From the NCBI GenBank assembly GCA_951406725.2, contig OX597818.1:134354001-134418000 (forward strand): DNA of 64,000 bases, written 5' to 3'. Shown here in pieces: positions 10,256-56,393 of the stretch. The notes under the pieces are model-generated. The model made no database searches. It was given only the letters and a program-made list of their open reading frames with translations, and was not told the origin of the DNA. Every line of letters begins with the position of its first letter. The first letter of the stretch is position 1. This DNA comes from Octopus vulgaris (lineage: Eukaryota). Both the position numbers and the translations under genes were made by a program.

Positions 10256-11743
10256 AAGGCAGAAACGTTAGCATGCCGGGCGAAATGCGTAGCCGTATTT
10301 CGTCTGCCGTTACGTTCTGAGTTCAAATTCCGCCGAGGTCGACTTTGCCTTTCATCCTTTCGGGGTCGATAAATTAAGTACCAGTTACGCACTGGGATCG
10401 ATGTAATCGACTTAATCCGTTTGTCTGTCCTTGTTTGTCCCCTCTGTGTTTAGCCCCTTGTGGGTAGTAAAGAAATAGGTATTTCGTCTGCCGTTACGTT
10501 CTGAGTTCAAATTCCGCCGAGGTCGACTTTGCCTTTCATCCTTTCGGGGTCGATAAATTAAGTACCAGTTACGCACTGGGGTCGATGTAATCGACTTAAT
10601 CCGTTTGTCTGTCCTTTTTTGTCCTCTCTGTGTTTAGCCCCTTGTGGGTAGTAAATAAATAGGTATTTCGTCTGCCGTTACGTTCTGAGTTCAAATTCCG
10701 CCGAGGTCGACTTTGCCTTTCATCCTTTCGGGGTCGATAAATTAAGTACCAGTTACGCACTGGGGTCGATGTAATCGACTTAATCCGTTTGTCTGTCCTT
10801 GTTTGTCCCCTCTGTGTTTAGCCCCTTGTGGGTAGTAAAGAAATAGGTATTTCGTCTGCCGTTACGTTCTGAGTTCAAATTCCGCCGAGGTCGACTTTGC
10901 CTTTCATCCTTTCGGGGTCGATAAATTAAGTACCAGTTACGCACTGGGGTCGATGTAATCGACTTAATCCGTTTGTCTGTCCTTTTGTCCTCTCTGTGTT
11001 TAGCCCCTTGTGGGTAGTAAATAAATAGGTATTTCGTCTGCCGTTACGTTCTGAGTTCAAATTCCGCCGAGGTCGACTTTGCCTTTCATCCTTTCGGGGT
11101 CGATAAATTAAGTACCAGTTACGCACTGGGATCGATGTAATCGACTTAATCCGTTTGTCTGTCCTTGTTTGTCCCCTCTGTGTTTAGCCCCTTGTGGGTA
11201 GTAAAGAAATATATTTCGTCTGCTGTTACATTCTGAGTTCAAATTCCGCCGAGGTCGACTTTGCTTTTCATCCTTTCGGGGTCGATAAATTAAGTACCAG
11301 TTACGCACTGGGATCGATGTAATCGACTTAATCCGTTTGTCTGTCCTTTTTTGTCCTCTCTGTGTTTAGCCCCTTGTGGGTAGTAAATAAATAGGTATTT
11401 CGTCTGCCGTTACGTTCTGAGTTCAAATTCCGCCGAGGTCGACTTTGCCTTTCATCCTTTCGGGGTCGATAAATTAAGTACCAGTTACGCACTGGGGTCG
11501 ATGTAATCGACTTAATCCGTTGTCTGTCCTTTTTTGTCCTCTCTGTGTTTAGCCCCTTGTGGGTAGTAAATAAATAGGTATTTCGTCTGTCTTTACGTTC
11601 TGAGTTCAAATTCCGCCGAGGTCGACTTTGCCTTTCATCCTTTCGGGGTCGATAAATTAAGTACCAGTTGCGTACAGGGGTTGATCTAATCGACTGGCCT
11701 CTCCCCCAAAATTTCGGCCCTTGTGCCTAGAGTAGAAAAGAAT
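10256..11743 (+). mobile_element. SINE-B tandem array (head, about 7 x 184-bp headless units, older tail)
   Basis: tatttcgtc recurs at about 10296, 10480, 10664, 10848, 11030, 11212, 11396 and 11579. Flanking duplication gtgrgtatatta. Confidence 0.92.
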
Positions 11744-14443: not shown

Positions 14444-15180
14444 ACTTAGAATAACTTAGAAAGGTTTTGGCCAGTATTGGCCCAGGCCATGTCTAACTTA
14501 ATAGCACCACCTGGTGAAGTCTTTCAGTTCAGGATTTGGGCACCAAGGCCCATTCAAGCAGAGAGTTATTGTTTGCGGAGACATATCCGGGTGTGGGTGG
14601 TTTGTCCGGTACTGTTTGAAGGAATTTGTCCAAAGACTTCTTGAATTTTGTGTGGTCAGTTTCTTTTTTGACGTGTCCTGGTGTAATGTTGAAGAGAGCG
14701 GGTCCAATTGAGGTGAAATAGTTGTGCCGTATTGTCGTTATGTGATGCGATTTAGATTTTTGTTGTGGACGGATGGCACGTGGTCCAAGCCTTGGATGCA
14801 TTTTGAAGGTGATGCCAACATCATTCGGACAGTGCTGATGGAATATTTTCCACATCATACAGATAATGTAGCGTTCACGGCGTCGTTGGAGTGAATACAA
14901 TTTCAGCTTTTCTAGTCTACCCCAGTAGTCAAGGTCTGATATGCCATCTATCTTTTTTGTGATTGACCTTTGGGGAGCTTCAATTCTCATAATATTTTGT
15001 TTTGTGTAGGGAGACCACAGTGGACAGCAGTATTCAAGGTGGGGTCGGGCAAAAGTGGAGAAGAGAAGGATAATAGCGTGGGAATCTCTCGACTGGAAGG
15101 TTCTGAGAATCCAGGAACACATTCTGCGGGCCATGTCAACTTTGCTGCTTGTGTCGTCTTCTAGGTGGTTCACGTTCTTG
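14441..15180 (-). mobile_element. 5'-truncated CR1/L2-group LINE (ORF2 C-terminus, 3' UTR, repeat tail)
   Basis: [13 protein letters not shown] and [16 protein letters not shown]. Tail (tctaagttat)2. Confidence 0.88.
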
Positions 15181-17096: not shown

Positions 17097-17700
17097 TTAT
17101 TTCTTCATTGCCCACAAGGGGCTAAATATAGAGGGAACAAACAAGGACAGAGAAACGGATTAAGTCGATTACATCGACCCCAGTGCGTAACTGGTACTTA
17201 ATTTATCGACCCCGAAAGGATCGAAGGCAAAGTTGACATCGGCGGAATTTGAACTCAGAACGTAACGGCAGACGAAATACCTATTTATTTACTACCCACA
17301 AGGTGCTAGACACAGAGAGGACAAACAAGGACAGAGAAACGGATTAAGTCGATTACATCAACCCCAGTGCGTAACTGGTACATATTTAATCGACCCCGAA
17401 AGGATGAAAGGTAAAGTCGACCTCGGCGGAATTTGAACTCAGAACGTAGCGGCAGACGAAATACCTATTTCTTTACTACCCACAAGGGGCTAATTAATCA
17501 CAGAGGGGACGAACAAGGACAGACAAACGGATTAAGGCGATTACATCGACTCCAGTGCGTAACAGGTACTTAATTTATCGACCCCGAGAGGATGAAAGGC
17601 AAAGTTGACCCCCGGCGGAATTTGAACTCAGAACGTAACGGCAGACGAAATACGGCTACGCATTTCGCCCGGCGTGCTAACGTTTCTGCCAGCTCGCCAC
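17097..17700 (-). mobile_element. SINE-B array (head plus 3 units)
   Basis: Junctions gacgaaatacctattt. Confidence 0.9.
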
Positions 17701-21829: not shown

Positions 21830-22428
21830 AAGGCGGCGAGCTGGCAGAAACGTTAGCACGCCGGGTGAAATGCTTAACGGTATTTCATCTGTCGCTACGT
21901 TCTGAGTTCAAATTCCGCCGAGGTCGACTTAGCCTTTCATCCTTTCGGGGTCGATAAATTAAGTACCAGTTACGCACTGGGGTCGATGTAATCGATTTAA
22001 TCCGTTTGTCTGTTCTTGTTTGTCTGTTCTTGTTTGTCCCCTCTGCGTTTAGCCCCTTGTGGGTAGTAAAGAAATAGGTATTTCGTCTACCGCTACGTTC
22101 TGAGTTCAAATTCCGCCAAGGTCGACTTTGCCTTTCATCCTTTCGGGGTCGATAAATTAAGTACCAGTTACGCACTGGGGTCGATGTAATCGATTTAATC
22201 CGTTTGTCTGTCCTTGTTTGTCCCCTCTATGTGTAGCCCCTTATGCGTAGTAAAAGAAATAGGTATTTCATCTGTCTTTACTTTCTTAGTTTAAATTCTG
22301 CTGAGGTCGACTTTACCTTTCATCCCTTCGGAGTCGATAAATAAAGTACCAGTTGCCAGCTGGGGTCGATCTAATCAACTGGCCCCTCCTCAAAAGTTTC
22401 GGGCCTTTTGCCTAGAGTAGAAAAGAAT
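21830..22428 (+). mobile_element. SINE-B array (head, 2 units, older tail)
   Basis: aaataggtatttc junctions. Confidence 0.88.
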
Positions 22429-23822: not shown

Positions 23823-24188
23823 TTAAACACATCTGTTAGATTCTTATGTTACAGTTTCACTGCACATATACACTTGCATACACATTGATATATTTTCATT
23901 TTTATTTTCATTTTTATTTTTCGTCTCTCTCACCATTATTATTGTTGATATTATTTTTCCCATTCACAACTTGGTTTGTAAATTACCCGAATTCCCTTAT
24001 TGCCCCATCTGTGTTCTCTTGTTGCATTTTTACTTTATTTTTATTTTTTTTATCTCATTTTACTTCATCTTATTAAATTTTTTTGATGCCCTTCAAAAGA
24101 TTCCTCACTGATGAGAATGACAATGCATAAATTGAATTTTAAATTTTATTTTTATTTTTATTTTTAAATTTAATTTTTTTATTTTCAA

Positions 24189-24584
24189 CTAGCAGTATCG
24201 CCCGGCGTTGCTCGGGTTTGTAATGGAAATAACTATATAAGCATTTTTAGAGAGTTATAGCCAAAAAATAGCATAAAATGCATTAAAAATGGGAAAAAAA
24301 TGATGGTAATTTTTTTTTTTAATCGTTGACTCATCGTAGACATTTTTAGAGAGTTACTTCCCTTATTTAATAGCGAAAAAAATGCATTAAAATGGAAAAA
24401 AATGATGGTAATTTTTTTTAAATCGTAGACTCATCGTAGACGCGCGCTAATACCCAGAAGAGCTCGATATGAATCACGACTATAAGATACCCGGTTTTGG
24501 TTAAACTGCACCGCAAAATGTGGGAGTAGCTGGGAATCTAAATCGTAGGAGACAGACACACAACTTGACTTTTATATATAAAGA
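24189..24584 (-). mobile_element. Non-autonomous Helitron, type I
   Basis: TC...hairpin-CTAG, A^T target. Confidence 0.88.
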
Positions 24585-24883
24585 TTATAATCACTATGAT
24601 TTAAATTTTTCTTACATTTTTGCACTGTTTTTCGAAACGTACATATGCATTGAATCCAGTTTTATAGTAAATCTATTTCTGTTCCAACATCTTTTCTCCA
24701 CTTTTTAATACTTTTTATGGTATATACTTATAATTATAATGAATCTCCTCAAATATTATTTTCATATTCTTATAAACTGTTTTGGCTGTTTTTCAAGAAT
24801 ATCATGAATCCTTATTAGAAATCACTTTTCTCTCTTTTTGGATCCCCTAAAAAGCTTGAATTGCTCTTTTTGAACTTACTTTT

Positions 24884-24943
<60 letters not shown>

Positions 24944-25139
24944 TCTTGTATTTGTTTCAGTCATTTGACTGCAGCCATGCTGGAGCACCGGCTTTAGTCG
25001 AGCAAATCGAACCCAGGACTTATTCTTTGTAAGTCTAGTACTTATTCCATCGGTTTTTTTTCTCGAACTTCTAAGCTACGGGGACGTAAACGCACCAGTA
25101 TCGGTTGTTAAGCAATGTTGGGGACAAACACAGACACAC

Positions 25140-25188
<49 letters not shown>

Positions 25189-25410
25189 CACACACAGATA
25201 TACTGAAAGAAGCCCGTCGTATATATATATATATATATATATATATACGACGGGTTTCTTTCAGTTTCCGTCTACCAAATCCACTCACAAGGCTTTGGTC
25301 AGCCCGAGTCTATAGTAGAAGACACTTGCACAAGGTGCCACGCAGTGGGACTGAACCCGGAACCATGTGGTTGGTAAACAAGCTACTTACCACACAGCCA
25401 CACCTGCGCC
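24944..25410 (-). mobile_element. SINE-C
   Basis: Family motifs. Confidence 0.85.
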
Positions 25411-26380
25411 TATATATTCTGAGCAAACTAATTTTGATGACTAAAATTCAGCAACACAACATAGAACTAAATAGAATGGTTGTTTTGCAAGAATCAGTAA
25501 CTGAGAAAATTATTCCAGAGAATTCAGCCTCTCGGAACCCATAAAGGTAATTATAGAAACTCATTAGAGGAGTTTTACTATCACTTTAGTAACTTTAATT
25601 ACGTTTGAGATAAAAGCAAATACTTTGCAATGGGATGGGTCACAAACTTCTTTTGTTTTGATACAAAGACGTCAACTTCTATCCTTTGGCATTCTACATG
25701 TTTAGAGAGTGAGATTCTGCACTGATTGCAAGTATTAGAATTAACAGTAACACTACTTTCACTTTTGATGTCTGTTATACTATCAGATGCAATGACTGAT
25801 TTATTACGTAGTATTGAAGTGGTAGATTTGTCTTGTAAATGATAGTCAGGAATAGGAGAACAGAATGTGATCAGATGGGTTGAAAAGGATTGTTACATGT
25901 ATGAATCGTAGAGCTTGATGCGATTGGGAAAGATAAATATACTGGATACCTCAACAGGGTGGATCTCTTTCGATTTGTGGGTAAACGAATTTGTAGAACT
26001 CGGGCTTCACATTTTATTTCCCATCCCATAAAATAGTGAAGAGGGTGAGGTTATGCTTATGTAAGAAGTCGCCTGTTTTTCACTGCAATTTATTTTCTTT
26101 CTTCTTTGAAATTTTGACATTATATCCTAAAAATAAAGAATCTTCAAAAACAGATGCTTTGATTTATTATATCAAGATTAAGACATTTTGCCGTCAGAAT
26201 TTCCAAAAGAGTATATACGTTTGAAGAAAATTCTTGACGTAACAAATCATAATACCATTTCCGGCAATAAATAACTGAACTAAAGCAGCAACTAGGTGAT
26301 GGTTTGTAAAACTCTGAAATGAAAGAAGAACAGAATTCTTTCATACCAACATCCCAAGTCAACTCAGTACACAATTGTCA
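25405..26380. repeat. Inverted paralogue of the flanks of the satellite/telomere cassette
   Basis: 25405-25531 is the reverse complement of about 34147-34275. 26075-26380 is the reverse complement of about 31178-31495. Confidence 0.92.
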
Positions 26381-26495
26381 AGGTGCGGAACCATGTGGTT
26401 GGTAAGCAAGCTAATTACCACACAGCCATATATCAGAGAGAAAAATTATCATTTCTAAATCTCTGAACGAGAAATATTCAGTAACAGTACTTTAG

Positions 26496-26767
26496 AGTAA
26501 AGATTATTTGCCAACATAATGTGACAGTCCTTATTAGGACGAATTATTTAGCCCCAGGAAACATCATCTGCAGTTGTCTATCGATGTACTATCTGCATCC
26601 GAATATTTTCGAACAAGGGAGCGTAGCGCCCCCACTCCCTTGTTCGAAAACATAAGAACGCAGATAGTGCATTGGTAGTCAGCTGGAGACGATGTTTCCT
26701 GAGGCTAAATGACAATAGCATTCGTCCTAATCAGGACTGCCACGTTATGTTGGCAAATAATCTTTAC

Positions 26768-26768
<1 letters not shown>
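26496..26768. repeat. Fold-back palindrome, probable Penelope pLTR 3' end
   Basis: agtaaagattatttgccaacataa...ttatgttggcaaataatctttact, centre gaacaagggag/ctcccttgttc. The arm is related to the 91-bp unit. Confidence 0.8.
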
Positions 26769-26827
<59 letters not shown>

Positions 26828-26861
26828 CGTGCGCGCGCGTGTGTGTGTGTGTGCGTGTGTG

Positions 26862-27271
26862 TTAGAGGAAAAATCAAAAGCAATGCTTCTGCTTCAAGTC
26901 ATTTAGAATAATTTAATTGGAGTAAGGTGAATTTGAAGTCTCACAGCTGTTTCTGGGATAACTCAAGTGGTTGGTTAGCATGTCCGTGCTCTGGGTATTC
27001 CATAATCAGAGACAAGGTGTGAATATTTTAGACGGGGAAAATTTACAGTTTATAAACTGTGAAATTTATTCCTTGTAAACTGTAAATTTTCCCCGTCTAA
27101 AATAATCATACCTTATCTCTGATGACGGAATACCCGGTGCACGGATATGCTAACCAACCACTTGGGTTATCCTAGAAAACACTGTAAGACTTCAAATTTA
27201 TTTAACCCTAATTGAACTATACTAAATGACTTGAAATACTCGTTCCGCCTTGGTTTTGATTTTTCCTCTAA
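26862..27271. repeat. Fold-back palindrome (about 195-bp arms) carrying a hammerhead motif in each arm
   Basis: ttagaggaaaaatcaaaa...ttttgatttttcctctaa. Confidence 0.85.
27116..27190 (+). ncRNA. Degenerate Penelope-type hammerhead motif
   Basis: tct-CTGATGA-c-ggaataccc...gggttatcc-ta-GAAA-acactg-TA-agac. The opposite arm gives GAAA-CAGCTG-TG-agac. Confidence 0.6.
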
Positions 27272-27274
27272 TAG

Positions 27275-27659
27275 GGGAAGCACTCCGTCGGTTACGACGA
27301 CGAGGGTTCCGGTTGATCCGATCAACGGAACAGCCGCCTGCTCGTGAAATTAACGTGTAAGTGGCTGAGCACTCCACAGACACGTGTACCCTTAACGTAG
27401 TTCCCGGGGATATTCAGCGTGACACAGAGAGTGACATGGCCGGCCCTTTGAAATACAGGTACAACAGAAACAGGAAGTAAGGGTGAGGGAAAGTTGTGGT
27501 GAAAGAATACAGCAGGGATCACCACCATCCCCTGCCGGAGCCTCGTGGAGCTTTAGGTGTTTTCGCTCAATAAACACTCACAACGCCCGGTCTGGGAATC
27601 GAAACCGCGATCCTACGACCGCGAATCCGCTGCCCTAACCACTGGGCCATTACGCCACC
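27275..27659 (-). mobile_element. SINE-A
   Basis: TSD tttcctctaata. Confidence 0.92.
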
Positions 27660-27876
27660 ACGTTTCCTCTAATATAGATGTATACATGCTATAACGGGAC
27701 CCTAACACGGATCCCTAGATCCAGCCTTAGCTGTGATCTTGGAACTTAATAGTCGAAGAACTATAGCACTTACCCAGCGTACCTATTCGTTTAGATCAAA
27801 GAAAAGTAATTAAAGTGATAATTAAAATTTCAGATCATTTCGTGACTTTTGGCCCACACTGTATATAACCAGATAG

Positions 27877-28259
27877 GGAGGCGCAATGGCCCAGTGGTTA
27901 GGGCAGCGGACTCGCGGTCGTAGAATCGTGGTTTCGATTCCCAGACCGGGCGTTGTGAGTGTTAATTGAGCGAAAACACCTAAAAGCTCCACGAGGCTCC
28001 GGCAGGGGATGGTGGTGATCCCTGCTGTACCCTTTCACCACAACTTTCTCTCACTCTTTCTTCCTGTTTCTGTTGTACCTGTATTTCAAAGGGCCGGCCT
28101 TGTCACTCTCTGTGTCACGCTGAATATCCCCGAGAACTACGTTAAGGGTACACGTGTCTGTGGAGTGCTCAGCCACTTACACGTTAATTTCACGAGCAGG
28201 CTGTTCCGTTGATGGGATCAACCGGAACCCTCGTCGTCGTAACCGACGGAGTGCTTCCA
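27877..28259 (+). mobile_element. SINE-A
   Basis: TSD atataaccagata. Confidence 0.92.
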
Positions 28260-28307
28260 TATAACCAGATACCTTATAGGAATCATAGTCTCCATAAAAC
28301 ATATATT

Positions 28308-28559
28308 CTTTTATTCGTTTATTTACTCCAGTCATCTGACCGTGGCCAGGCTGGAACACCGCCTTGAAGGGTTTTAGTCGAACAACTCGATCTCAGGATT
28401 TATTTTTGTTGAAGCCTAGTACTTATTATGTTTTTGTCGAACCGCTGTGTTACGGAGACTTAAACACACCAGCATCGGTTGCCAAGCAGTGATGGGGAGA
28501 CAAACACAGACACACGCACACATAGATATATACATACATATATACATACATATATATAA

Positions 28560-28627
<68 letters not shown>

Positions 28628-28796
28628 GCACAAACGCGCGCGATGGGATTCTTTCGATTTCTGTCTGCCAAATCCACTCACGAGGCTTTGGTCGGCCCGA
28701 GGCTATAGAAAAAGACACTCGCCCAAGGTGCCACGCAGTGGGATTGAACCCAAAGCCATGTGGTTTGGAAGCAAACTTCTTACCACACAGCCAAGC
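28308..28796 (-). mobile_element. SINE-C (diverged)
   Basis: Family motifs. Confidence 0.8.
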
Positions 28797-29963
28797 ACAC
28801 ATTATTTATATAACAGTTTTAGAATTTCTCCTCGTGACATATCCTATCTTTTAGGCCTTCTTAAAGGACCAAAAATAGGCAAATTCAAGCCCTTAAATTC
28901 CCACAGAATGTAAGCCCACATCTCATATGTATTAAGGTAAATTAAATTTTTTTTAGTCGACGTTGTGAAGCTTCGAATAAATGTAGATAATTGCTGTATT
29001 GTTAGTATTTCCGTAGATAGAAAGATTAACTTGACCTGGTTTCAAATCTTTTCCTGGTATTGCAAAACTTCCGGGACAAGCCTAAAATATTACGCCAATA
29101 CTTCAAAAAATAATGTTTTCTATGTATTAGTTATATTCGAGCACCATCCTCTCCGAAATAGTCCCCTTTCGGAAAGTATGCAACGATCCTAACGCGTCGT
29201 CTTCAAACCTCAAAAGTAACATAGAAATCGTCTTTATGTAGGCCATTCAACAACTCCAGTGATTCCATTTAAATTTCATCTACCGTCTCGAATCGGTGAC
29301 CCTTCAGTTTTTATTGTATTTCAGACAACTCAAAGAAGTGACGAGGGGATAGATCATGCGAATACGGAGGTATTTTGTGACGATCACAAGAATGCGGTGG
29401 TAGTTCAGGTTTCTTGTGAGAATCTCCTTGTAAATTCCATAACTGATTCCAGTTACCGAAGAGGGTTTATAGATTGTTTGACAGCGATCCTCATGGATGA
29501 GTTAACGATTTTTTTCACTTTCTTTTTATCAGTGTTTCGATAGTGACTGGTCACCTTGAATGTCTGTCATCTTAATCCAGCATTCAATCAGTCTTGACAC
29601 GCATGTTCCACTCAAAAACCTGTATTTGACCTTACGAATGCTGCTAATACCCGAAAGAATTATTCTAAGGGTCTCTGGAGCCAATTTTTCAAGCTTTATG
29701 CAAAATTCAATGACGGCACATTACTCGAAATTGTTGGTCTTTGTGAAGAGAGCCGAGCCGTGCTAACACGACATTGCAAAACCTCTCTGAATAATTGGAC
29801 ATGTGTAGATAACATGAAACTTATTTGCTGACTGACACAGAAAGCTATCACAGATCGCACACATTTCAATTAAATAGTTAAATCACAAAATGTGCAGTCT
29901 GGAAATATTCTGATAACAACTCGAAATTTCCCAACGTCGCATCAATATAAGTTTAAAATTATA

Positions 29964-30466
29964 TCTATATATATAAACCTGTAGTTGTGTGAGTGTCTGT
30001 CCCCTTCGATTTAGATTCCTAACTACTCCCACATTTTGCGGTGCAGTTTAACCAAATTCGGGTATCTTATAGTCGTGATTCATATCGAGCCCGACTGAGT
30101 ATTAGTGCGCGTCTACGATGAGTCTACGATTTTAAAAATAATTTAACATCATTTTTTATTCCATTTTAATGCATAATTTTTCGTGTGTCGATGGCGGCGG
30201 AGTTGGCGTCCATGGTCACACCTGCACCTGTTTGCTTCTCCCCCTTCTTCCCTCCCTCGTGAAGCTGTGGGGAAGGGAGTGTAAGGAAATCAACGTCGTA
30301 AAGCGTTGTCAAGGAGACCAGCGTTCTTTTAGAACAACGACTTCATGGCTTGAAGACACCAAAACAGAAATGGCTAAGAAAGCCCGAATTGGCATCTATA
30401 AGGGAAGTAACTCTCTAAAAATGCTTATATAGTTATATCCCTTACAAACCCGAGCGATACTGCTAG
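29964..30466 (+). mobile_element. Non-autonomous Helitron, type IV (extra internal segment, 10-bp deletion in 3' hairpin)
   Basis: a^TCTATATATATAAA...cccgagcgatactgCTAG^t. Confidence 0.82.
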
Positions 30467-31500
30467 TTATATATAAATGCTTCTTAATGCTGTGATCGCG
30501 TCATTAACTATCTTTCAATCAAAACTAATAAATTTTGAAATCCCACCAACTTTTTTGTCGAGGTGGGTTTACATTCACTATGAAACGCTTGAATCCCCAA
30601 AATCTTCTAAATAAACCAGAAAGGGAGAAAAAATGTCAAAGCCATGTATTTCTATATAATTCTTTTCCAGGTATACGGCTTGAAATTTGAAATTGATTAT
30701 AGAAATTTTCTCATAAGAAGAAACTGAGTAAAAGAAGGGTATCTGAAATTAAACTTTGAATTTGAACCAACATTCAATAAAAAACTAATTTGCAATCTCT
30801 TCCAGCTTAAAAATTGGATGGACATTTTTTTTTTCTTTCGGTTCGAGTTTTAATTTAAATTACAGGCGTCGATTTGATTTCCTCCTTGAATTCTGTGAAT
30901 AAAAACTTCCTAGTTTTACTGATTTTAAATTTCCTGTGTAAAAAATATTTGGAATAGCAATTTTTTTTTAGATATTTAACTGGAATTCAAAGATTTCAAT
31001 GAGTTTGTTACTTTGATATGCAACCGTTCCATTTCATTTAGCTGCAAAGCACATAAATATAGAATAATTAAGTTAAAGGTCGATATACTGAAAATCGTAC
31101 GCAAATTTTGGAAACAGATGAAGGTATCTATTAAGATAAAATCATCTGTGAAATTCTCATCATCGAACGGTTTCCGCTGACAATTGTGTACTGAGTTGAC
31201 TTGGGATGTTGGCATGAAACAATTCTGTTCTTTCATTTCAGGGTTTAAAACTTACTAAGTTTTACAAACCATCACCTAGTTGCTGCTTTAGTTCAGTTAT
31301 TTATTGCCGGAAATGGTATTATGATTTGTTACGTCAAGAATTTTCTTCAAACGTATATACTCTTTTGGAAATTTTGCCTCCAAAATGTCTTAATCTTGAT
31401 GTAATAAATCAAAGCATCTGTTTTTGAAGATTCCTTATTTTTAGGATATAATGTCAAAATTCCAAAGACGAAAGAAAATAAATTGCAGTAAAAACTCTTA

Positions 31501-33940
31501 AGGGATTCCTCTTTGATCTCTTTCGACACCCTCTTTGATTTCTTTCGGCACTCTCTTTGATCTCTTTCGGCAGTCTCTTTTATCTCTTTCGGGAATCCCA
31601 TTTGATATCTTTCGGCACTCTTTGATCTCTATCGGTACTCCTCTTTGATCTCTTTCGGCACTCTCTTTGTTCTCTTTCGGCACTCTCTTTGTTCTCTTTC
31701 GGCACCCTGTTTGATCCCTTTCGGCACCCACTTTGATCTCTTTCGGCACGTCCTTTGATCTCTTTCGGCACGTCCTTTGATCTCTTTCGGGACACCCTTT
31801 GATCTCTTTCGGCACGTCCTTTGATCTCTTTCCGCACCCTCTTTGATCTCTTTCGGGACCCCCTTTGATCTCTTTCGGCACGTCCTTTGATCACTTTCGG
31901 CACGTCCTTTGATCTCTTTCGGTACTCCTCTTTGATCTCTTTCGGGACCCTCTTTGATCTCTTTCGGCACGTCCTTGGATCTTTTTCGGGACCCCATTTG
32001 ATCTCTTTCGGCACGTCCTTTGATCTCTTTCGGCACGTCCTTTGATCTCTTTCGGAACCCTCTTTGATCTCTTTCGGCACGTCCTTTGATCTCTTTCGGT
32101 ACTCCTCTTTGATCTCTTTCGGCACCCTCTTTGATCTCTTTCGGGACCCCCTTTGATCTCTTTCGGCACGTCCTTTGATCTCTTTCGGTACTCCTCTTTG
32201 AGCTCTTTCGGCACCCTCTTTGATATCTTTCGGCACCCTCTTTGATCTCTTACGCCACGTCCTTTGATCTCTTTCGGTACTCCTCTTTGATCTCTTTCGG
32301 CACCCTCTTTGATCTCTTTCGGGACCCCCTTTGATCTCTTTCGGTACTCCTCTTTGATCTCTTTCGGTACCCTCTTTGATCTCTTTCGGCACGTCCTTTG
32401 ATCTCTTTCAGTACTCCTCTTTGATCTCTTTCGGCACGTCCTTTGATCTCGTTCAGTATTCCTCTTTGATCTCTTTCGGCACGTCCCTTGATCTCTTTCG
32501 GTACTCCTCTTTGATCTCTTTCGGCACCCTCTTTGATCTCTTTCGGCACGTCCTTTGATCTTTTTCGGTACTCCTCTTTGATCTCTTTCGGCACGTCCAT
32601 TGATATCTTTCGGTACTCCTCTTTGATCTCTTTCGGCACGTACTTTGATATATTTCGGTACTCCTCTTTGATCTCTTTCGGCACGTCCTTTGATCTCTTT
32701 CGGTACTCCTCTTTGATCTCTTTCGGCACCCTCTTTGATCTCTTTCGGCACGTCCTTTGATCTCTTTCGGTACTCCTCTTTGATCTCTTTCGGCACCCTC
32801 TTTGATCTCTTTCGGCACGTCCTTTGATCTCTTTCGGTACTCCTCTTTGATGTCTTTCGGCACGTCCTTGGATCTTTTTCGGGACCCCCTTTGATTTCTT
32901 TCGGCACGTCCTTTGATCTTTTTCGGTACTCCTGTTTGATCTCTTTCGGCACGTCCTTTGATCTCTTTCGGCACGTCCTTTGATCTCTTTCGGCGCCCTC
33001 CTTGATCTCTTTGGACACGTCCTTTGATCTCTTTCGGCACGTCCTTTGATCTCTTTCGGTACTCCTCTTTGATCTCTTTCGGCACCCTCTTTGATCTCTT
33101 TCGGCACGTCCTTTGATCTCTTTCGGCACGTCCTTTAATCTCTTTCGGTACTCCTCTTTGATCTCTTTCGGCACCCTCTTTGATCTCTTTCGGGCCCCCC
33201 TTTGATCTCTTTCGGCACGTCCTTTGATCTCTTTCGGTACTCCTCTTTGATCTCTTTCTTCACCCTCTTTGATCTCTTTCGACACGTCCTTTGATCTCTT
33301 TCGGTACTCCTCTTTGATCTCTTTCGGCACCCTCTTTGATCTCTTTCGGCACGTCCTTTGATCTCTTTCGGTACTCCTCTTTGATCTCTTTCGGCACCCT
33401 CTTTGATCTCTTTCGGCACGTCCTTTGATCTCTTTCGGTACTCCTCTTTGATCTCTTTCGGCACCCTCTTTGATCTCTTTCGGCACGTCCTTTGATCTCT
33501 TTCGGTACTCCTCTTTGATGTCTTTCGGCACGTCCTTGGATCTTTTTCGTGACCCCCTTTGATCTCTTTCGGCACGTCCTTTGATCTTTTTCGGTACTCC
33601 TGTTTGATCTCTTTCGGCACGTCCTTTGATCTCTTTCGGGACCCCTTTTGATCTCTTTCGGCACGTCCTTTAATCTCTTTCGGTACTCCTCTTTGATCTC
33701 TTTCGGCACGTCCTTTGATCTCTTTCGGCACCCTCTTTGATCTCTTTCGGGACCCCCTTTGATCTCTTTCGGCACCTCCTTTGATCTCTTTCGGCACGTC
33801 CTTTGATCTTTATCGGCACGTCCTTTGATCTCTTTCGGGACCCTCTTTAATCTCTTTCAGCACTCTCTTTGATCTCTATCGGGATTCCATTTTGATCTCT
33901 TTCGGGACTCCCTTTTGATATCTTTCGGCACCCCCTTTGA
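31501..33940. repeat. 22/23-bp minisatellite, about 110 units
   Basis: Constant tttgatctctttcgg plus variable cacgtcc, tactcctc, caccctc or gaccccc. Confidence 0.97.
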
Positions 33941-34071
33941 TAGGGTTAGGGGTTAGGGGTTAGGGTTAGGGTTAGGGTTTAGCGTTATGGTTTAGGGTTA
34001 GGTTTAAAGTTAGGGTTAGGGTTGGGGTTAGGGTTAGGATTAGGGCTTAGGGTTAGTGTTAGGGGTTAGGT

Positions 34072-34106
<35 letters not shown>

Positions 34107-34146
34107 GTTTAGGCTTAGAGTGTTAGGGTTAGGGGTAGGTTTAGGG
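33941..34146 (+). repeat. Interstitial degenerate (TTAGGG)n
   Basis: About 34 TTAGGG/TTAGGGG/TTTAGG units. Confidence 0.95.
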
Positions 34147-34267
34147 GAGGCTGAATTCTCTAGAATTATTTTCTCAGTTACTGATTCTTGCAAAACAACC
34201 ATTCTATTTAGTTCTATGTTGTGTTTCTGAATTTTAGTCATCAAAATAAGTTTGCTCAGAATATATA

Positions 34268-34459
34268 GGCGCAGAAGTGACTGTATAGTAAGTATAGTCG
34301 CAGGAGTGGCTATGTGGTAAGTATCTTGCTTACCAACCACATGGTTCCGGGTTCAGTCCCACTGCGTGGCACCTTAGGCAGGTGTCTTCTACTATAGCCT
34401 CGGGCCGACCGAAGCCTTGTGAGTGGATTTGGTAGACGGAAACTGAAAGAGGCCTGTCG

Positions 34460-34517
<58 letters not shown>

Positions 34518-34779
34518 CGTGTGTGTGTGTGAGTGAGTGTGTGTGTGTGTGTGTGCGTGTGTGTGTGTGTCTGTGTTTGTGTGTCTGTGTTTGTCCCCCC
34601 AACATCGCTTGACAACCGATGCTGGTGTGTTTACGTCCCCGTCACCTAGCGGTTCTGCAAGAGAAACCGATAGAATAAGTACTAGTCTTACAAAGAATAA
34701 GTCCTGGGGTCGATTTGCTCGACTGAAGGCGGTGCTCCAGCATGACCGCAATCAAATGACTGAAACAAATTAAAAGAAT
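34268..34779 (+). mobile_element. SINE-C
   Basis: Family motifs; duplicated start of head. Confidence 0.88.
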
Positions 34780-35847
34780 TGATATATATATTCATATAAT
34801 ATTCATATAATACACACATATATATATATATGTAAATTATATATACATACATACATACATACATACACATATACATACATACATACGTTTGGTGTCTATA
34901 AGGCATATTAGCAGTTGATATTGTATATATGTGTACACACATATATGTATATATGTGTGTGTGTAGTATGTATGTATATTTATGAAAGTGTTAACCTCTT
35001 TAAACCACTTTAAACAACAACAACAACAACAACACTCCTTTAACCCAGACTCGTCCCTAACATAATTTGTACTTCCAGAACTGTGTATCTACTACGTCGT
35101 ATTTTAGTTTGTTTCCCATGATACAGTCAACTTCTTGTAAAAAAATACTTTTTACTTATTTTGTCCTTGGGTTGGGGCGTTGATTACGACTCTGTAGTAT
35201 CGGAATTTGTATAACCTCTAATCTTTTGGTCCATGAACAGAAAAAAAAAAAACTTCCTTTGCGTTCTGTTATGTGGAAATCTTTCTCATTCTCAATTGAA
35301 AACCACAATATTCACCCATTTCCTTTTTTTTTTTTTCATCCGGAATCTCTTTCCGCTTTACCTCAGTCAGCAATGACCTTCAGAGGTAAGTTGTAGCATC
35401 AAGTACATTTTATGAATGAAGACATAGACTATACATGCATCAGACCATTATACGGGTCAGTCCAGGTCAGTCCAGTAACTTCAACTTAGTTTAATGGGAA
35501 AGAGAGAAAGAGTTTAGAGAGAGACCGTGAGAGCACTATTGAAACATATCGCTGACTCGCTCTTCTACAGGAAGTTTGATCAACTTTCATATTGGCTGAA
35601 CACATTGATTTTGTTTAACCCATTTCGTCCTGGTTGTCAGCAGTATTATTGAATGGACGCCATAGCATTGCATTTGCGAGACATGAGGGAATAATTCCAA
35701 TCACTTCTTTATAAACACATATTTTTACATCTCTGTTGTTACAAAGTGGTTGTAATTGTAACTCTCTAATAAATAATTTGTCTATTTGCAAAACTGTAAC
35801 ACGCAATCGGCTTTCGTCTAGGACATTTTTATTTTTTAATTTACATA

Positions 35848-36259
35848 GGCGCGGGAGTGGCTGTGTGGTAAGTAGCTTGCTTACCAACCACATGGTTCTG
35901 GGTTCAGTCCCACTGCGTGGCATCATGGGCAAGTGTCTTCTGCTATAGCCTCGGGCCAACCAAAGCCTTGTGAGTGGATTTGGTAGACGGAAACTGAAAG
36001 AAGCCCGTCGTATGTATATATATATATATGTGTGTGTGTATGTTTGTGTGTCTGTGTTTGTCCCTCTAGCATTGCTTGACAACCGATGCTGGTGTGTTTA
36101 GGTCCCCGTCACTTAGCGGTTCGGCAAAACAGACCGATAGAATAAGTACTGGGCTTACAAAGAATAAGTCCTGGGGTCAATTTGCTCGACTAAAGGCGGT
36201 GCTCCAGCATGGCCGCAGTCAAATGACTGAAACAAGTAAAGGAGTAAAAGAGTAAGAGT
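35848..36259 (+). mobile_element. SINE-C
   Basis: Full-length, with (gtaaaa)n-like tail. Confidence 0.9.
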
Positions 36260-36680
36260 ATATACTCAGCATTTCAATCGGTTCCATCTCCAGGAGTCTC
36301 GTATGTTTTATTTATGGATATGTGCATATTACTGGACGAATTTTACCTCAATACTTTTATGTTATGTAGATGCATTTTTCACTACAGGCAGCCATATTGT
36401 TAAATCGCTTCTGATCCTTACAGCAACAGTGCAGTGAGATTATTGATGAAATACCATGGTGACGTTAATTCATTTTTATCCTTATCTTCACTTTCAGAGA
36501 AGATACTTAGCACAAACAGAATTTGCTTCAAAACAAATTAAAAGCTTAGGAAGTGAAATAGAATTAGTGTGCGTGTTTATTATTGGTATAACGACCCTCT
36601 CGAGATATAAGAAAATTAAAAATATCAACTGTCGAACGTTTCTTAAAATTTTAAATTTAACTTATTTTATAAGTATATAG

Positions 36681-37049
36681 TTATTACTTCCGCCTTAGCG
36701 AAGGCGGGGGGTATTGTTTTTAGTTGTGTTTTTTTGTTTGTCTGTCTGTAGACATGTCTCAAGAACCGCTGAATGGACTCGGATGAAACTTTCAGGGATG
36801 TTTGGCCTCGTGACTGGCACAAAATGATTAGATTTTGGAATCAATCTGCTACCGGACAAGGATTCTGGATTATTTTTCCTGTTTTTTTTTTTTTTTATTA
36901 ATTTTTGAGAGCCGTCGGGTTCATTTTTTAGTATTCTCGTTTGTGAGAGCAGTCGAGTTTATTTCAGACATTCTTATTTTGAAAATCGTCTCTGGCTCAT
37001 TGTTGAGTGCTACTTTGGCGGAGGTTTGCGCTCTCTGAGTGCTCTTGTT
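36681..37049 (+). mobile_element. Helentron-associated (HINE/DINE-1-like) element
   Basis: 5' ttattacttccgcc with short inverted copy, (tgtc)n, 3' subTIR ggcggaggt plus hairpin gcgctc-tct-gagtgc, TT ends. Confidence 0.72.
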
Positions 37050-44691: not shown

Positions 44692-45277
44692 AAGGCGGCG
44701 AGCTGGCAGAAACGTAAGCACGCCAGGCGAAATGCGTAGCCGTATTTCGTCTGCCATTACGTTCTGAGTTCAAATTCCGCCGAAGTCGACTTTACCTTTC
44801 ATCCTTTCGGGGTCGATAAATTAAGTACCAGTTACGCACTGGGGTCGATGTAATCGACTTAATCCGTTTGTCTGTCTTTGTTTGTCCCCTCTGTGTTTAG
44901 CCCCTTGTGGGTAGTAAAGAAATAGGTATTTCGCCCGCCGCTGCGTTCTGAGTTCAAATTCCACCGAGGTCGACTTTGCCTTTCATCCTTTCGGGATCGA
45001 TAAATTAAGTACCAGTTACGCACTGGGGTCGATGTAATCGACTTAATCCGTTTGTCTGTCCTTGTTTGTCCCCTCTGTGTTTAGCCCCTTGTGGGTAGTA
45101 AAGAAATAGGTATTTCGTCTGCCGTTACGTTCTGAGTTCAAATTCCGCCGCGGTCGACTTTGCCTTCCATCCTTTCGGGATCGATAAAATGAGTACCAGT
45201 TGCGTACTGCGGTCGATCTAATCGACTAGCCCTCTCCCCAGGAATTTCGGGCCATTGTGCCTAGAGTAGAAAAGATT
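44692..45277 (+). mobile_element. SINE-B array (head, 2 units, older tail)
   Basis: The whole array is flanked by ctataatatatt. Confidence 0.9.
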
Positions 45278-49062: not shown

Positions 49063-49274
49063 TCCCATATATACATTATACATATATGCATGTATAAGTA
49101 TATATATATATATACATATCATACATATATACATATGCATCTAAATATGTATGTATGTGTATATATACTTTTTCTTTACCCATTCTCTTCCGGTAATTCA
49201 AAATGTGACCGCGTGTGTAGCGTTGGTGATTTTTTTCCTCCGTCTTCCCTTCTTTGGGTCTTTCCTTTTCCTAT

Positions 49275-49309
49275 GTTTCTGACGAAGAGCTCCGCTCGAA
49301 ACGTTAAAC
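49275..49309 (+). ncRNA. Minimal hammerhead ribozyme (Penelope-type)
   Basis: gttt-CTGACGA-a-gagc-tcc-gctc-GAAA-cg-TT-aaac. Canonical core and palindromic aacgtt stem III. Confidence 0.75.
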
Positions 49310-49404
49310 CCTCCTTTCCTACCTTCCTGAGCGTCCAATAATACAATATTTGTTCCACGTCCTCGCGTTGTTGTTTTCTCTTTGTGTTTTCATGTTTGGA
49401 TTGA

Positions 49405-50104
49405 CAACTCAACTCCAGTCTGATCTATATGCTGTGAGTCAATGGGCAGACAGAAACAAAATGCAACTGAACGAGGGAAAATTTGAGCTGATGCATTTTG
49501 GAAGAAATTCCTCACTAAAGCAGCCATACTCTCTTCCTTCAGGGGAACCGCTCACAGCCTCTAACAACATCAGAGACCTAGGTGTAATTGTTGATGACGA
49601 TCTCAGTTGGAGTGCACACATCAACAAGAAGGTCGATATAGCTCGTAGGATGAGTTCCTGGATCTTAAGAACTTTCCGGTCCAGAGAACAAGGTGACATC
49701 ATACCACTCTTCTCCTCCTTTGTACGGCCACACCTCGAATACTGCTGTCCACTGTGGTCTCCCCATACAAGACAAAACATCTCGAGGATTGAATCACCCC
49801 AGAGAGCATTCACTAAACGAATTGAAGGCATGGCTGCTCTCGATTATTGGGATCGCCTTAAAGCCTTGAAACTCTACTCTCTCCAGCGTCGCCGTGAGCG
49901 GTACATCATTTGTACGATGTGGAGAATATACCGCCAACTTTGCCCAAACGACCTGAACATAAGCTTCAAGGTTCATCCAAGACTGGGACCACGGGTCATA
50001 CGTCCCCTGCCCAATTCAAGATCACATCATACATATCCACTACAACATAATTTCTTTTCCTCAACAGGCCCTGCCCTATTTAACATTGTCCCGAAAGAGA
50101 TCAA

Positions 50105-50105
<1 letters not shown>
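49405..50105 (+). mobile_element. CR1/L2-group LINE ORF2 C-terminal fragment
   Basis: [37 protein letters not shown] and [10 protein letters not shown]. Paralogous to 14529-15173. Confidence 0.9.
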
Positions 50106-50168
<63 letters not shown>

Positions 50169-54573: not shown

Positions 54574-54984
54574 AAGGTGGCGAGCTGGCAGAAACGTTAG
54601 CTCGCCGGGCGAAATGCTTAACAGTATTTCGTCTGCCGTTACGTTCTGAGTTCAAATTCCGCCGAGGTCGACTTTGCCTTTCATCCTTTCGGGGTCGATT
54701 AAATAAGTACCAATTACGCACTGAGGTCGATATAATCGACTTAATACCTATGTCTGTCTTTGTTTGTCCGCTCTGTGTTTAGCCCCTTGTGGGTAGTAAA
54801 GAAATAGGTATTTCGTCTGCCGCTACGCTCTGAGTTCAAATTCCACCGAGGTTGACTTTACCTTTCATCCTTTCGGGGTCGATTGAATAAGTACCAGTTA
54901 CGCACTGGGGTCGATATAATCGACTTAATCCGTTTGTCTGTCCTTGTTTATCCCCTCTGTGTGTAGCCCCTTGTGGGCAGTAAA
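54574..54984 (+). mobile_element. SINE-B dimer
   Basis: Head plus 2 units. Confidence 0.88.
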
Positions 54985-56393
54985 GGATGAAGAAAGGATA
55001 ATGTCCATGACCCTGTGCAGGGGCTCCGAGATTGGTTCGCGGAAGGTATCCTTAGACTGGAGGGCTGGTCCTAATGCTTACAATAGAGTGGACTCCGTTA
55101 TAGTACCCAGGGGCAACTTGTGATGGTAAACTGGGTGACGGATTAAGTGTGTTTATGTATGAGTGTACGTATGTGCGCGCTCGCGTGAGTGTTTGCGTGT
55201 GCATTGGTAGACTAAAAATACTTAATGCCAATTATGCATACTATATTTGGTTTTTATTTTCTAAGAAAAAAAATACATTATTAATATACGTAAGACTCTA
55301 AAATGTTAAAAAATAGTATTAATTGCGACAATCAAAATATGAGTTAGTAATCGATAAGAATTAATTAAATGTTACTGTTTTCTTTAAATTTTGCGGTTTG
55401 TTTTATTCTGGTCCTTATATATAACGATTATATGATTCTTAATTTGAAAATTACACATAAGCTAACAAAGATTCAAAGCTATTCATTGTGATACTGCCTG
55501 CAAATTCCAACAGGATCTGAGATAATTTCGTAACAGTTCTTCTTGCCCATAACACGGCTCATTTCATTAACTGGAATCTTTGGTGCTAAGTAAGAATGAA
55601 AAAGAAGTTATTGGTTAACAGATTATTGTTAATTAAAATAAAAGTAATATTCATATTAAAACATGTACAAGGTTCAAATTCCATATATTTTATTAGAAAC
55701 AATGGTCGGGATGGTTGGCTGGCTGGATAGATATGCTTATCTATATCTATAAGTCTCATGTTTGTCCAGAAACCAAATCTTCTTGGGAGCCCTACAAGAA
55801 GCTTGCACTATGCTAGAATACCTTACAGGGTCCGATTGGTTTATAATCCTAAAATATTCAAGTTTTATGTTCTATAAATTGGACTGATAATTTTTATAAT
55901 GTTTGAGTGTATTTCAGATCTGATAAAAATTAGCTGCCCGATTCATAAAACATAATACCATATTGTTTTAGAGGCATAAATTAATTTAAGAATAAGAATA
56001 ATTTCTTTTCTATATTCTGGTATATTTGGAACTATGTACTGACTTTTCGAAAATATAATTTTTTTTATTAAGGAATTTTAATATCGACAACTTTCAAACA
56101 TGCACTATCTGTGTAATTTGTTTAAAATATGATTGTTTCCCAGTATTGTTACAGATTTTGTAGACCACTTTAAGGAAACATAACTTAATATACACTGGCC
56201 AAAATAAGTTTAAAAGTGATGACGATAGTTCTATTCCTTCATTAATTTATTTTTAACAAAACTATATAAAATTATTGTTGTATTTAGGAATGGTCATTTT
56301 GCCAGTTTAGCCAATAAAAACACACGCACTATATATTTGGTGTTACTTTGCTTCAGTGTTATTTATTTTTTACATTAATCTTAATCTTATTTC

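What the first reader, a model, noticed from the sequence alone, without database searches (positions are those of the whole stretch)
31496..34146. Satellite plus telomeric-repeat cassette replacing ~540 bp, with the empty allele preserved nearby
Seen: unique DNA is followed by about 110 units of 22/23-bp satellite, then about 205 bp of (TTAGGG)n, then unique DNA. Both flanks match an inverted paralogue (26075-26380 and 25405-25531). In the paralogue the interval is 543 bp of ordinary sequence (25532-26074) that is absent here. Satellite followed by G-rich-strand TTAGGG is the polarity of a chromosome end, and no TSD or second TIR is visible. Inference: either capture of a subtelomere-telomere fragment (or telomerase healing) during break repair, or one arm of an undescribed mobile element whose subterminal repeats expanded beside an internal TTAGGG tract.
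Basis: partly seen in the sequence, partly recalled or inferred. Interest (0 to 1): 0.8.

Follow-up and report, generated by a model that had tools for sequence, protein, structure and literature searches.

The report
Telomere-satellite patch in a repaired break
A piece of an abundant short satellite repeat with a stub of telomere repeats attached sits where ordinary DNA was lost, most likely as a scar of break repair, and both the satellite unit and its join to the telomere repeats resemble one short stretch of a LINE retrotransposon gene.

Summary
109 units of a 22/23-bp satellite and 206 bp of degenerate TTAGGG replace 543 bp that survive in an inverted paralogue, 3.3% diverged. A short-read contig bridges the left junction (possibly the source sample). 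There is no TSD, TIR or second arm, and the array starts mid-unit. The satellite is an abundant family in three labelled organisms. The TTAGGG tract is more decayed than the flanks, so it probably arrived already old. Best reading (0.6): a ready-made satellite-telomere junction was copied or captured during break repair, then expanded in place. This is a variant of the mammalian 'deletion plus addition' interstitial telomeric sequence. New lead: the unit shares 20 exact bases with the antisense strand of a LINE ORF2 fragment at 50087-50106 (0 of 200 null windows above 17). In the same register the LINE continues with TAGGG, exactly where the cassette switches to telomere repeats. The satellite may thus descend from a LINE piece capped by telomerase. 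That rests on one LINE copy. Chromosome-end location of the satellite was not testable, because no genome is held.

The parts
31178..31495 (+). left flank, duplicated; inverted paralogue of 26074-26380
   Evidence: 10 substitutions in 302 aligned bases plus indels; contigs of X1 and X3 join it to the DNA upstream of 31178
31496..33941 (+). 22/23-bp satellite array, 109 units plus partial units at both ends; four main unit types, 67-bp higher-order period, decayed edge units
   Evidence: abundant family in runs X1, X3, X4, X8
32663..33639 (+). recent internal duplication of the array, offset 668 bp (32663-32971 against 33331-33639)
   Evidence: 2 mismatches in 309 bases
33913..33945 (+). last satellite unit and switch to telomere repeats; aligns without gaps to the LINE antisense strand 50106-50074
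   Evidence: 24 of 33 identical, including the last 6 bases across the switch
33942..34146 (+). degenerate (TTAGGG)n tract, G-rich strand pointing away from the satellite
34147..34270 (+). right unique flank; inverted paralogue of 25408-25531
   Evidence: 4 substitutions in 124 bases
34271..34802 (+). SINE-like dispersed repeat ending the duplicated segment, with a 29-bp extra piece at its start (SINE label recalled)
24918..26380 (-). inverted paralogue that keeps the pre-insertion state
   Evidence: paralogue-type contigs in X1, X3, X4
25532..26074 (-). 543-bp interval absent at the cassette locus; no relation to the cassette
   Evidence: 18 of 200 shuffles reach the observed local score
26386..26428 (-). 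5' fragment of the same SINE-like repeat, cut off where the paralogue begins; suggests the paralogue is the derived copy
   Evidence: polarity is inference
49413..50106 (+). fragment of a LINE ORF2 (C-terminal part, open frame), cut at its 3' side at the stretch that matches the satellite unit

Best explanation
A repair scar holding a captured satellite-telomere junction. Shown: about 1.5 kb exists twice, inverted, and one copy lacks 543 bp and holds satellite plus TTAGGG instead, with at most 1 base of microhomology at each end and no TSD. Inferred step 1: after the segment was duplicated, a double-strand break at the 31496 copy lost 543 bp. Inferred step 2: the left end copied or was joined to an existing piece of the satellite family that already ran into decayed telomere repeats, most simply the inner edge of a chromosome end. 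The template could have been DNA (template switch, circle) or a TERRA-type cDNA; these were not told apart. Inferred step 3: copying stopped about 200 bp into the TTAGGG and was joined to the right end. Inferred step 4: the middle of the array expanded afterwards by unequal exchange or slippage. Deeper origin, inferred (about 0.65 for the monomer, about 0.45 for monomer plus telomere seed): the unit derives from the antisense strand of the LINE ORF2 codons for [13 protein letters not shown], whose TAGGG served telomerase as a seed. No function for the host is implied.
For: Collinear paralogue on both sides with a 543-bp loss. No TSD, TIR or second arm. The array starts mid-unit: satellite-only contigs align from 31495 with satellite letters in front (tables 5c and 8), and X1's junction contig stays unbroken at depth 63.5 (flank contig 54.4) for 41 bases into the cassette. 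The family is abundant: summed contig depth 485,323 against 54 in X1, 95,161 against 14 in X3, 293,570 in X4 and 8,459 in X8 (not a copy number). The tract is older than the site: 13 substitutions in 197 bases where 1.65% per copy predicts 3.3 (Poisson p 4e-5; p 0.002 if only 10 are independent). Edge units are decayed (22 differences in 308 bases against 34 in 2090 for the middle, p 4e-7), and a 668-bp internal duplication differs by 2 of 309. Deletion with addition is a known outcome at ITS insertion sites: 14 of 66 horse loci (PMC7215372, passages). LINE link: 20-bp exact match, 0 of 200 Markov windows above 17, expected number 0.0004-0.0014; 0 of 46 letter-permuted versions of the array above 17; seeds of 5 or more bases occur at 2 of 676 positions of the LINE antisense strand, one of them in register with the switch.
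Against: No chromosome end carrying this satellite was seen; the donor is hypothetical (no genome). Both array edges are decayed and share old variants, as expected if a whole bounded array moved, not a piece cut from a long one. Edge decay in place is also known (bioRxiv 10.1101/2023.04.24.538079, passages). If the tract is measured against the full 3.3%, its excess decay is weak (p 0.016 to 0.12), and hexamer tracts may mutate faster than unique DNA. The variant carried by 31-43% of laid depth at 31544 in the four runs is absent from this array (0 against 80 units), so the array is not a typical sample of the family. LINE link: one copy only; 4 of the 22 monomer positions never match; only 8 of 109 units carry the 19-mer and 1 the 20-mer; three internal units score 24-25 of 33 against the LINE, as well as or better than the junction unit, so only the 4 bases AGGG are independent evidence; the link was found after the fact; an unrelated contig holds a 22-bp minisatellite with the same 15-base core (L001), which shows such likeness arises by chance in large collections.
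Confidence: 0.6

Rival explanations
1. Remnant of a non-autonomous mobile element (Helitron/Helentron type or similar) whose body is a minisatellite plus a TTAGGG-like tract, inserted with deletion or later stripped of both ends.
For: Both edges decayed and sharing variants, as in a bounded internal array. Helitrons with minisatellites and flanking telomeric repeats exist in Paramecium (PMC13085455, passages), and subtelomeric Helitron-derived arrays in Hydractinia (PMC11934779, abstract). Recalled, from no call: octopus genomes hold dispersed repeats with internal TTAGGG-like tracts. Records up to 21-49 kb long were laid in part in each run, so short satellite pieces may lie in unique DNA; which part of the stretch they fit is not shown.
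Against: Every base between the two breakpoints is satellite or TTAGGG, leaving no room for element ends. No TIR, TSD or terminal hairpin. 543 bp are lost. The first 41 bases are single-copy in X1, and at most about 1 in 100 laid contigs run on into unlike sequence; the 24 loose ends shown (of 177) are almost all satellite.
Confidence: 0.2
2. Two steps at this site: a satellite piece was captured, telomerase added TTAGGG to it at the break, and the far end was then rejoined (classical short ITS).
For: Polarity fits. Telomerase-made ITS with deletion and addition are documented (PMC2246262, passages; PMC7215372).
Against: The tract is more decayed than the flanks. The switch has 1 base in register although 689 of 2430 array positions offer 2-3; 60% of informative horse loci show 2 or more. 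The tract is long against the 46-81 nt means of primates and rodents. The LINE register would be coincidence.
Confidence: 0.13
3. Relic of a former chromosome end or an end-to-end fusion at this position.
For: Satellite then G-rich strand is end polarity. Internalised telomere relics tied to duplications are known in Magnaporthe (12 of 19 relics; PMC7367193, passages).
Against: The DNA beyond the tract is the collinear continuation of the left flank, so both sides came from one broken molecule. There is no head-to-head CCCTAA tract.
Confidence: 0.04
4. Assembly artefact.
For: The one bridging contig may come from the source sample. X3 lists no junction contig.
Against: X1 bridges the left junction with 0 differences. 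X1's paralogue contig ends exactly 30 bases into the stretch shared with the second right flank, as a two-copy graph requires. A misjoin would not land on the collinear flank. X4 (another organism label) has a contig with the cassette-locus alleles that continues into the first 4 cassette bases (a hint only).
Confidence: 0.03

Closest known systems
Short interstitial telomeric sequences inserted at repaired breaks in primates, rodents and horse (PMC2246262, passages; PMC7215372, first ninth of the text and passages)
   Same: TTAGGG tract at a site whose empty counterpart survives; flank deletion; added sequence beside the tract; TERRA cDNA is raised there as a possible template
   Different: The added sequence is 2.4 kb of a satellite family, not a short random or TERC piece; the tract is about 200 bp and decayed beyond its flanks; only 1 base in register at the satellite end; the empty state is a paralogue
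Subtelomeric ITS and internalised MoTeR relics of Magnaporthe (PMC6410037 and PMC7367193, passages)
   Same: Once-terminal repeat plus telomere stub at an internal site, linked to a local duplication
   Different: No retroelement 3' end; both flanks are collinear with the duplicate; chromosome-end origin is not shown here
Satellites derived from LINE ORF2, such as chicken HinfI from CR1 and PROsat from L1 (PMC9659126, passages)
   Same: Monomer matches LINE ORF2 coding sequence
   Different: The monomer is only 22 bp, and the match extends in register to the telomere seed; evidence is one LINE copy
Endonuclease-independent LINE insertion at breaks and uncapped telomeres (PMC4700185, passages)
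   Same: 3'-truncated LINE sequence without TSD at DNA ends; the LINE strand's 5' side faces the telomere repeats
   Different: Here only about 33 bases would be LINE-derived, followed by telomere repeats and amplified; no such hand-over was seen in the passages read
Non-autonomous Helitrons with minisatellites and telomeric repeats (PMC13085455, passages; PMC11934779, abstract)
   Same: Minisatellite next to telomeric repeats
   Different: No terminal sequences, no hairpin, and a large target deletion

Membership tests
short ITS at a repaired break | four or more TTAGGG units, under one mismatch per unit, at a non-terminal site | tested here: met
   about 33 units, 22 differences in 206 bp, about 30 kb of window on each side
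short ITS at a repaired break | empty counterpart showing sudden arrival with NHEJ-type changes | tested here: met
   paralogue lacks any tract; 543-bp deletion plus addition
short ITS at a repaired break | [quoted passage not shown] | tested here: inconclusive
   1 base in register at the satellite end; tract more decayed than the flanks, p 4e-5 to 0.12 depending on the rate assumed
subtelomeric satellite | abundant tandem family | tested here: met
   1380, 583, 1220 and 244 contigs laid in X1, X3, X4 and X8, depth piled on the 85 satellite bases
subtelomeric satellite | located next to terminal TTAGGG at chromosome ends | not testable with these tools
   no genome held; contigs give no position
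TIR DNA transposon / MITE | terminal inverted repeats and TSD | tested here: not met
   no TSD of 2-15 bp, at most 9 of 20 end complementarity, no inverted arm in 64 kb
non-autonomous Helitron/Helentron | conserved non-repeat ends with subterminal hairpin or sub-TIRs | tested here: not met
   all cassette bases are satellite or TTAGGG; no hairpin inside the cassette ends; left end single-copy in X1
non-autonomous Helitron/Helentron | many dispersed copies with different flanks | tested here: inconclusive
   at most about 1 in 100 laid contigs run on into unlike sequence; 153 of 177 loose ends not shown
retro-insertion by TPRT | TSD and poly(A) or simple tail | tested here: not met
   no TSD; no A-tail at either end
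LINE-derived satellite | monomer similarity to a LINE beyond chance | tested here: met
   20-bp exact match; 0 of 200 and 0 of 46 controls above 17; the partner is an APE-RT ORF2 by homologues
LINE-derived satellite | match to the family consensus, or arrays still embedded in LINE sequence | not testable with these tools
   no second copy of this subfamily found
telomere fusion ITS | head-to-head TTAGGG/CCCTAA | tested here: not met
   single orientation

The most novel reading that the evidence does not exclude
The satellite family was founded where telomerase capped a short piece of a LINE: either a LINE broken at this point, or a cDNA of about 33 bases primed inside ORF2 on a broken chromosome end and handed to telomerase at the TAGGG that the codons for G-P-A-L spell on the antisense strand. 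The 22 bases next to the new telomere were amplified into a family of thousands of units, which spread with its telomere stub and now patches breaks elsewhere. The window's LINE copy ends at the monomer boundary, which would mark an internal priming site. The boldest form, in which the reverse transcriptase itself copied the 22 bases repeatedly as telomerase does, I put at about 0.05.
Probability: 0.3. Interest if true: 0.8.

Novelty: new variant of a known kind. Interest (0 to 1): 0.45.

Why it matters
At the least, it is a base-resolved case, in what looks like a cephalopod genome, of a satellite plus telomere stub entering a repaired break, with the earlier state kept in a paralogue 5 kb away. 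It also gives a probe for an abundant repeat that may mark chromosome ends; I found no description of it in searches. If the LINE link holds, it would name both the source of a satellite monomer and the telomerase seed beside it. That would make the question of how subtelomeric satellites are born testable with one assembly search.

Tried and rejected
No whole genome is held, so the genome-wide survey was not possible. Five look-ups of earlier findings returned nothing. A satellite dimer pattern gave 0 loci in viral contigs, 0 in genome contigs and 1 in metagenome contigs. That locus, L001, is an unrelated EF-hand-like coding contig with 7.3 copies of a similar 22-mer and no TTAGGG tract; I read it as chance. 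The 12-base satellite match inside the deleted interval (25962) is chance: 8.6 such matches are expected, and the interval-cassette alignment is matched by 18 of 200 shuffles. TTAA plus GG at 31498 as a piggyBac- or Kolobok-type end (labels recalled) was rejected: no matching right end, and the letters are a decayed unit. Rfam scan of 24000-37000: 33 matches, all below gathering score, none in the cassette. No ORF of 110 aa or more in the flanks or interval. More DNA copies of the LINE subfamily: none. Proteins top out at 72-74% identity and follow P-K-E-I-K with V, S or L, so the prediction that the LINE continues as the satellite does could not be tested. The two SINE-like copies in the duplicated segment share only 1 and 3 differences from consensus, so whether they are co-duplicated is unresolved. 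No RNA holder was listed. X3 lists no junction contig, and X4 and X8 have no cover over most of the flank; contigs do not show absence. X3's 921-bp contig has depth 18.2, nearer one copy of the interval (15-19) than two (28-34), which is weak. 4 of 24 listed runs were laid.

Full report
Setting. The window is repeat-rich animal DNA with no long host ORF. From its repeat landscape I take it to be an octopus; that is recalled and no call established it. No genome is held, and five look-ups of earlier findings were empty.

Observation. The cassette 31496-34146 is 2651 bp. It has a partial unit, 109 units of 22/23 bp, six bases of a further unit, then 206 bp of degenerate TTAGGG. Its flanks match an inverted paralogue: 31178-31494 with 26380-26077, and 34147-34802 with 25531-24918. 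The unique flanks differ by 10 of 302 and 4 of 124 bases. The paralogue keeps 543 bp that are missing here and unrelated to the cassette. There is no TSD, TIR, second arm or other TTAGGG tract in the window. Microhomology is at most one base at each end.

Is it real? I laid contigs of 4 of 24 listed runs on 30500-31580. In X1, a 133-bp contig with no difference bridges the left junction (92 + 41 letters, depth 63.5; flank contig 54.4). A second contig with the paralogue's alleles (depth 59.3) leaves at 31494 and runs 595 letters further. That ends exactly 30 bases into the stretch shared with a second right flank. X1 may be the source sample, so it argues against misassembly but is not independent. 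In X4, another organism label, a contig with the cassette-locus alleles ends four bases into the cassette; this is below the bridging rule and only a hint that the event is shared. X3 lists no junction contig, which contigs cannot turn into absence.

What the satellite is. It is an abundant family. Summed contig depth on its first units is 485,323 against 54 on the flank in X1, 95,161 against 14 in X3, 293,570 in X4 and 8,459 in X8 (not copy numbers). At most about 1 in 100 laid contigs run on into unlike sequence. Satellite-only contigs align from 31495 with satellite letters in front, so the cassette begins inside a unit. The X1 junction contig is unbroken for 41 cassette bases at single-copy depth, so no young family shares this end. 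A variant carried by 31-43% of depth at 31544 is absent from this array (0 against 80 units).

Order of events. Edge units are decayed (22 differences in 308 bases against 34 in 2090; p 4e-7), and both edges share variants rare in the middle. A 668-bp internal duplication differs at 2 of 309 bases, far less than the 3.3% between paralogues, so the array grew recently, probably in place. The TTAGGG tract has 13 substitutions in 197 bases, where half the paralogue divergence predicts 3.3 (p 4e-5). The test weakens to p 0.002 if only 10 changes are independent, and to 0.016-0.12 at the full 3.3%. I read the tract as older than its site, with that caveat. The paralogue starts at a SINE-like 5' fragment that is cut off there, which suggests it is the derived copy and the cassette locus the original site (inference).

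The LINE link. The longest word shared between the array and the rest of the window is 20 bases, at 50087-50106 on the minus strand. No Markov window of 200 exceeded 17, the expected count is 0.0004-0.0014, and none of 46 letter-permuted arrays exceeded 17. The seven other arrays of the window tested share at most 15. The partner is the end of an open LINE ORF2 fragment (P0001). Three of its full-length relatives, all I scanned, carry endonuclease and RT domains; the label CR1-like is recalled. The 20 bases encode V-P-K-E-I-K, a motif conserved in homologues, so they are LINE coding sequence. The fragment stops there, before a TA run. Continued without gaps, the LINE antisense strand reads AT-AGGG 22 bases on, exactly where the cassette leaves the satellite for AGGG-TTAGGGG. 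Seeds of five bases occur at 2 of 676 positions of that strand, and AGGG has frequency 0.0026 in the window. The satellite itself offers only 1 base in register at the switch.

Against the LINE link: it is one copy, found after the fact. Four monomer positions never match. Three internal units match the LINE 33-mer as well as or better than the junction unit (24, 24, 25 of 33), so the 0-of-300 null for that 33-mer is not independent of the core match; only AGGG is. An unrelated contig among 241 million has a 22-bp repeat with the same 15-base core. No further copy of the subfamily was found.

Mechanism. Best (0.6): a break with loss of 543 bp was patched with an existing satellite-telomere junction, by DNA template switch, circle or TERRA-type cDNA, and the array then expanded. 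Rivals: mobile-element remnant 0.2, telomerase on site 0.13, former end or fusion 0.04, artefact 0.03. The deletion, replacement, missing ends and family abundance are shown. The donor's position at a chromosome end, the repair route and the LINE origin are inferred.

Comparison. It works like the mammalian short ITS with deletion and addition (14 of 66 horse loci; 6 of 130 rodent loci). It meets two of that class's three features and is inconclusive on telomerase action at the site. It fails the tests for TIR elements, Helitron ends, TPRT insertion and fusion. LINE-derived satellites are known, as are LINE insertions at uncapped ends and internalised telomere relics beside duplications.

What I read. 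PMC7215372: first of nine parts and passages. Passages only: PMC2246262, PMC9659126, PMC7367193, PMC13085455, PMC6795134, PMC6410037, PMC4700185 and bioRxiv 10.1101/2023.04.24.538079. PMC11934779: abstract and outline. No supplements were read; repeat libraries in supplements of octopus genome papers may already list this satellite. I saw no description of this satellite (listings of searches) or of a LINE-seeded telomere-satellite junction (listings of searches). The library lacks most subscription papers and Repbase.

Verdict. Real, and at its core a variant of a known repair scar. Interest 0.45, carried mainly by the testable LINE-telomerase origin (0.3; 0.8 if true).

Noticed in passing
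window 49413-50106: LINE ORF2 fragment with an open frame of 240 codons, cut on the 3' side at the satellite-matching word and followed by a TA-rich microsatellite; a second, older-type copy at 14532-15143 (minus) runs to the ORF end.
   Followed up: partly
window 26493-26771 and 26862-27271: Two adjacent fold-back elements (about 79-80% self-complementary) between the paralogue and the cassette locus; probably MITE-like.
   Followed up: no
window 27276-27659 and 27877-28260: Inverted pair of a 385-bp repeat (95% alike) that has at least ten copies in the window; together with the fold-backs, the 4.8 kb between the inverted paralogues is rich in inverted repeats that could promote breaks.
   Followed up: no
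window 10295-11695, 17098-17653, 21879-22376, 44742-45227, 54624-54985: A 184-bp unit occurs as dispersed tandem arrays of 2 to 7.6 copies, apparently inside a dispersed element.
   Followed up: no
window 34271-34324: 29-bp extra piece duplicating the start of the SINE-like repeat, absent in the paralogue.
   Followed up: no
window 31168-31180 and 26378-26396: The left end of the duplication shows an 8-9-base likeness between the SINE-like fragment and the DNA upstream of the cassette locus, offset by 4 bases; suggests a microhomology-guided template switch.
   Followed up: partly
window 49270-49420: Sequence abutting the LINE's 5' cut resembles a Penelope-type terminal repeat with a hammerhead-like core (label recalled, not tested).
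   Followed up: no
L001 928-1087: Unrelated contig with an EF-hand-like ORF and a 22-bp minisatellite sharing a 15-base core with the family's common variant; read as chance.
   Followed up: partly
window 57316-57684 (minus); 62681-63349 and 63576-63959 (minus): ORF pieces that look like a Tc1-type transposase and another non-LTR reverse transcriptase (by eye).
   Followed up: no
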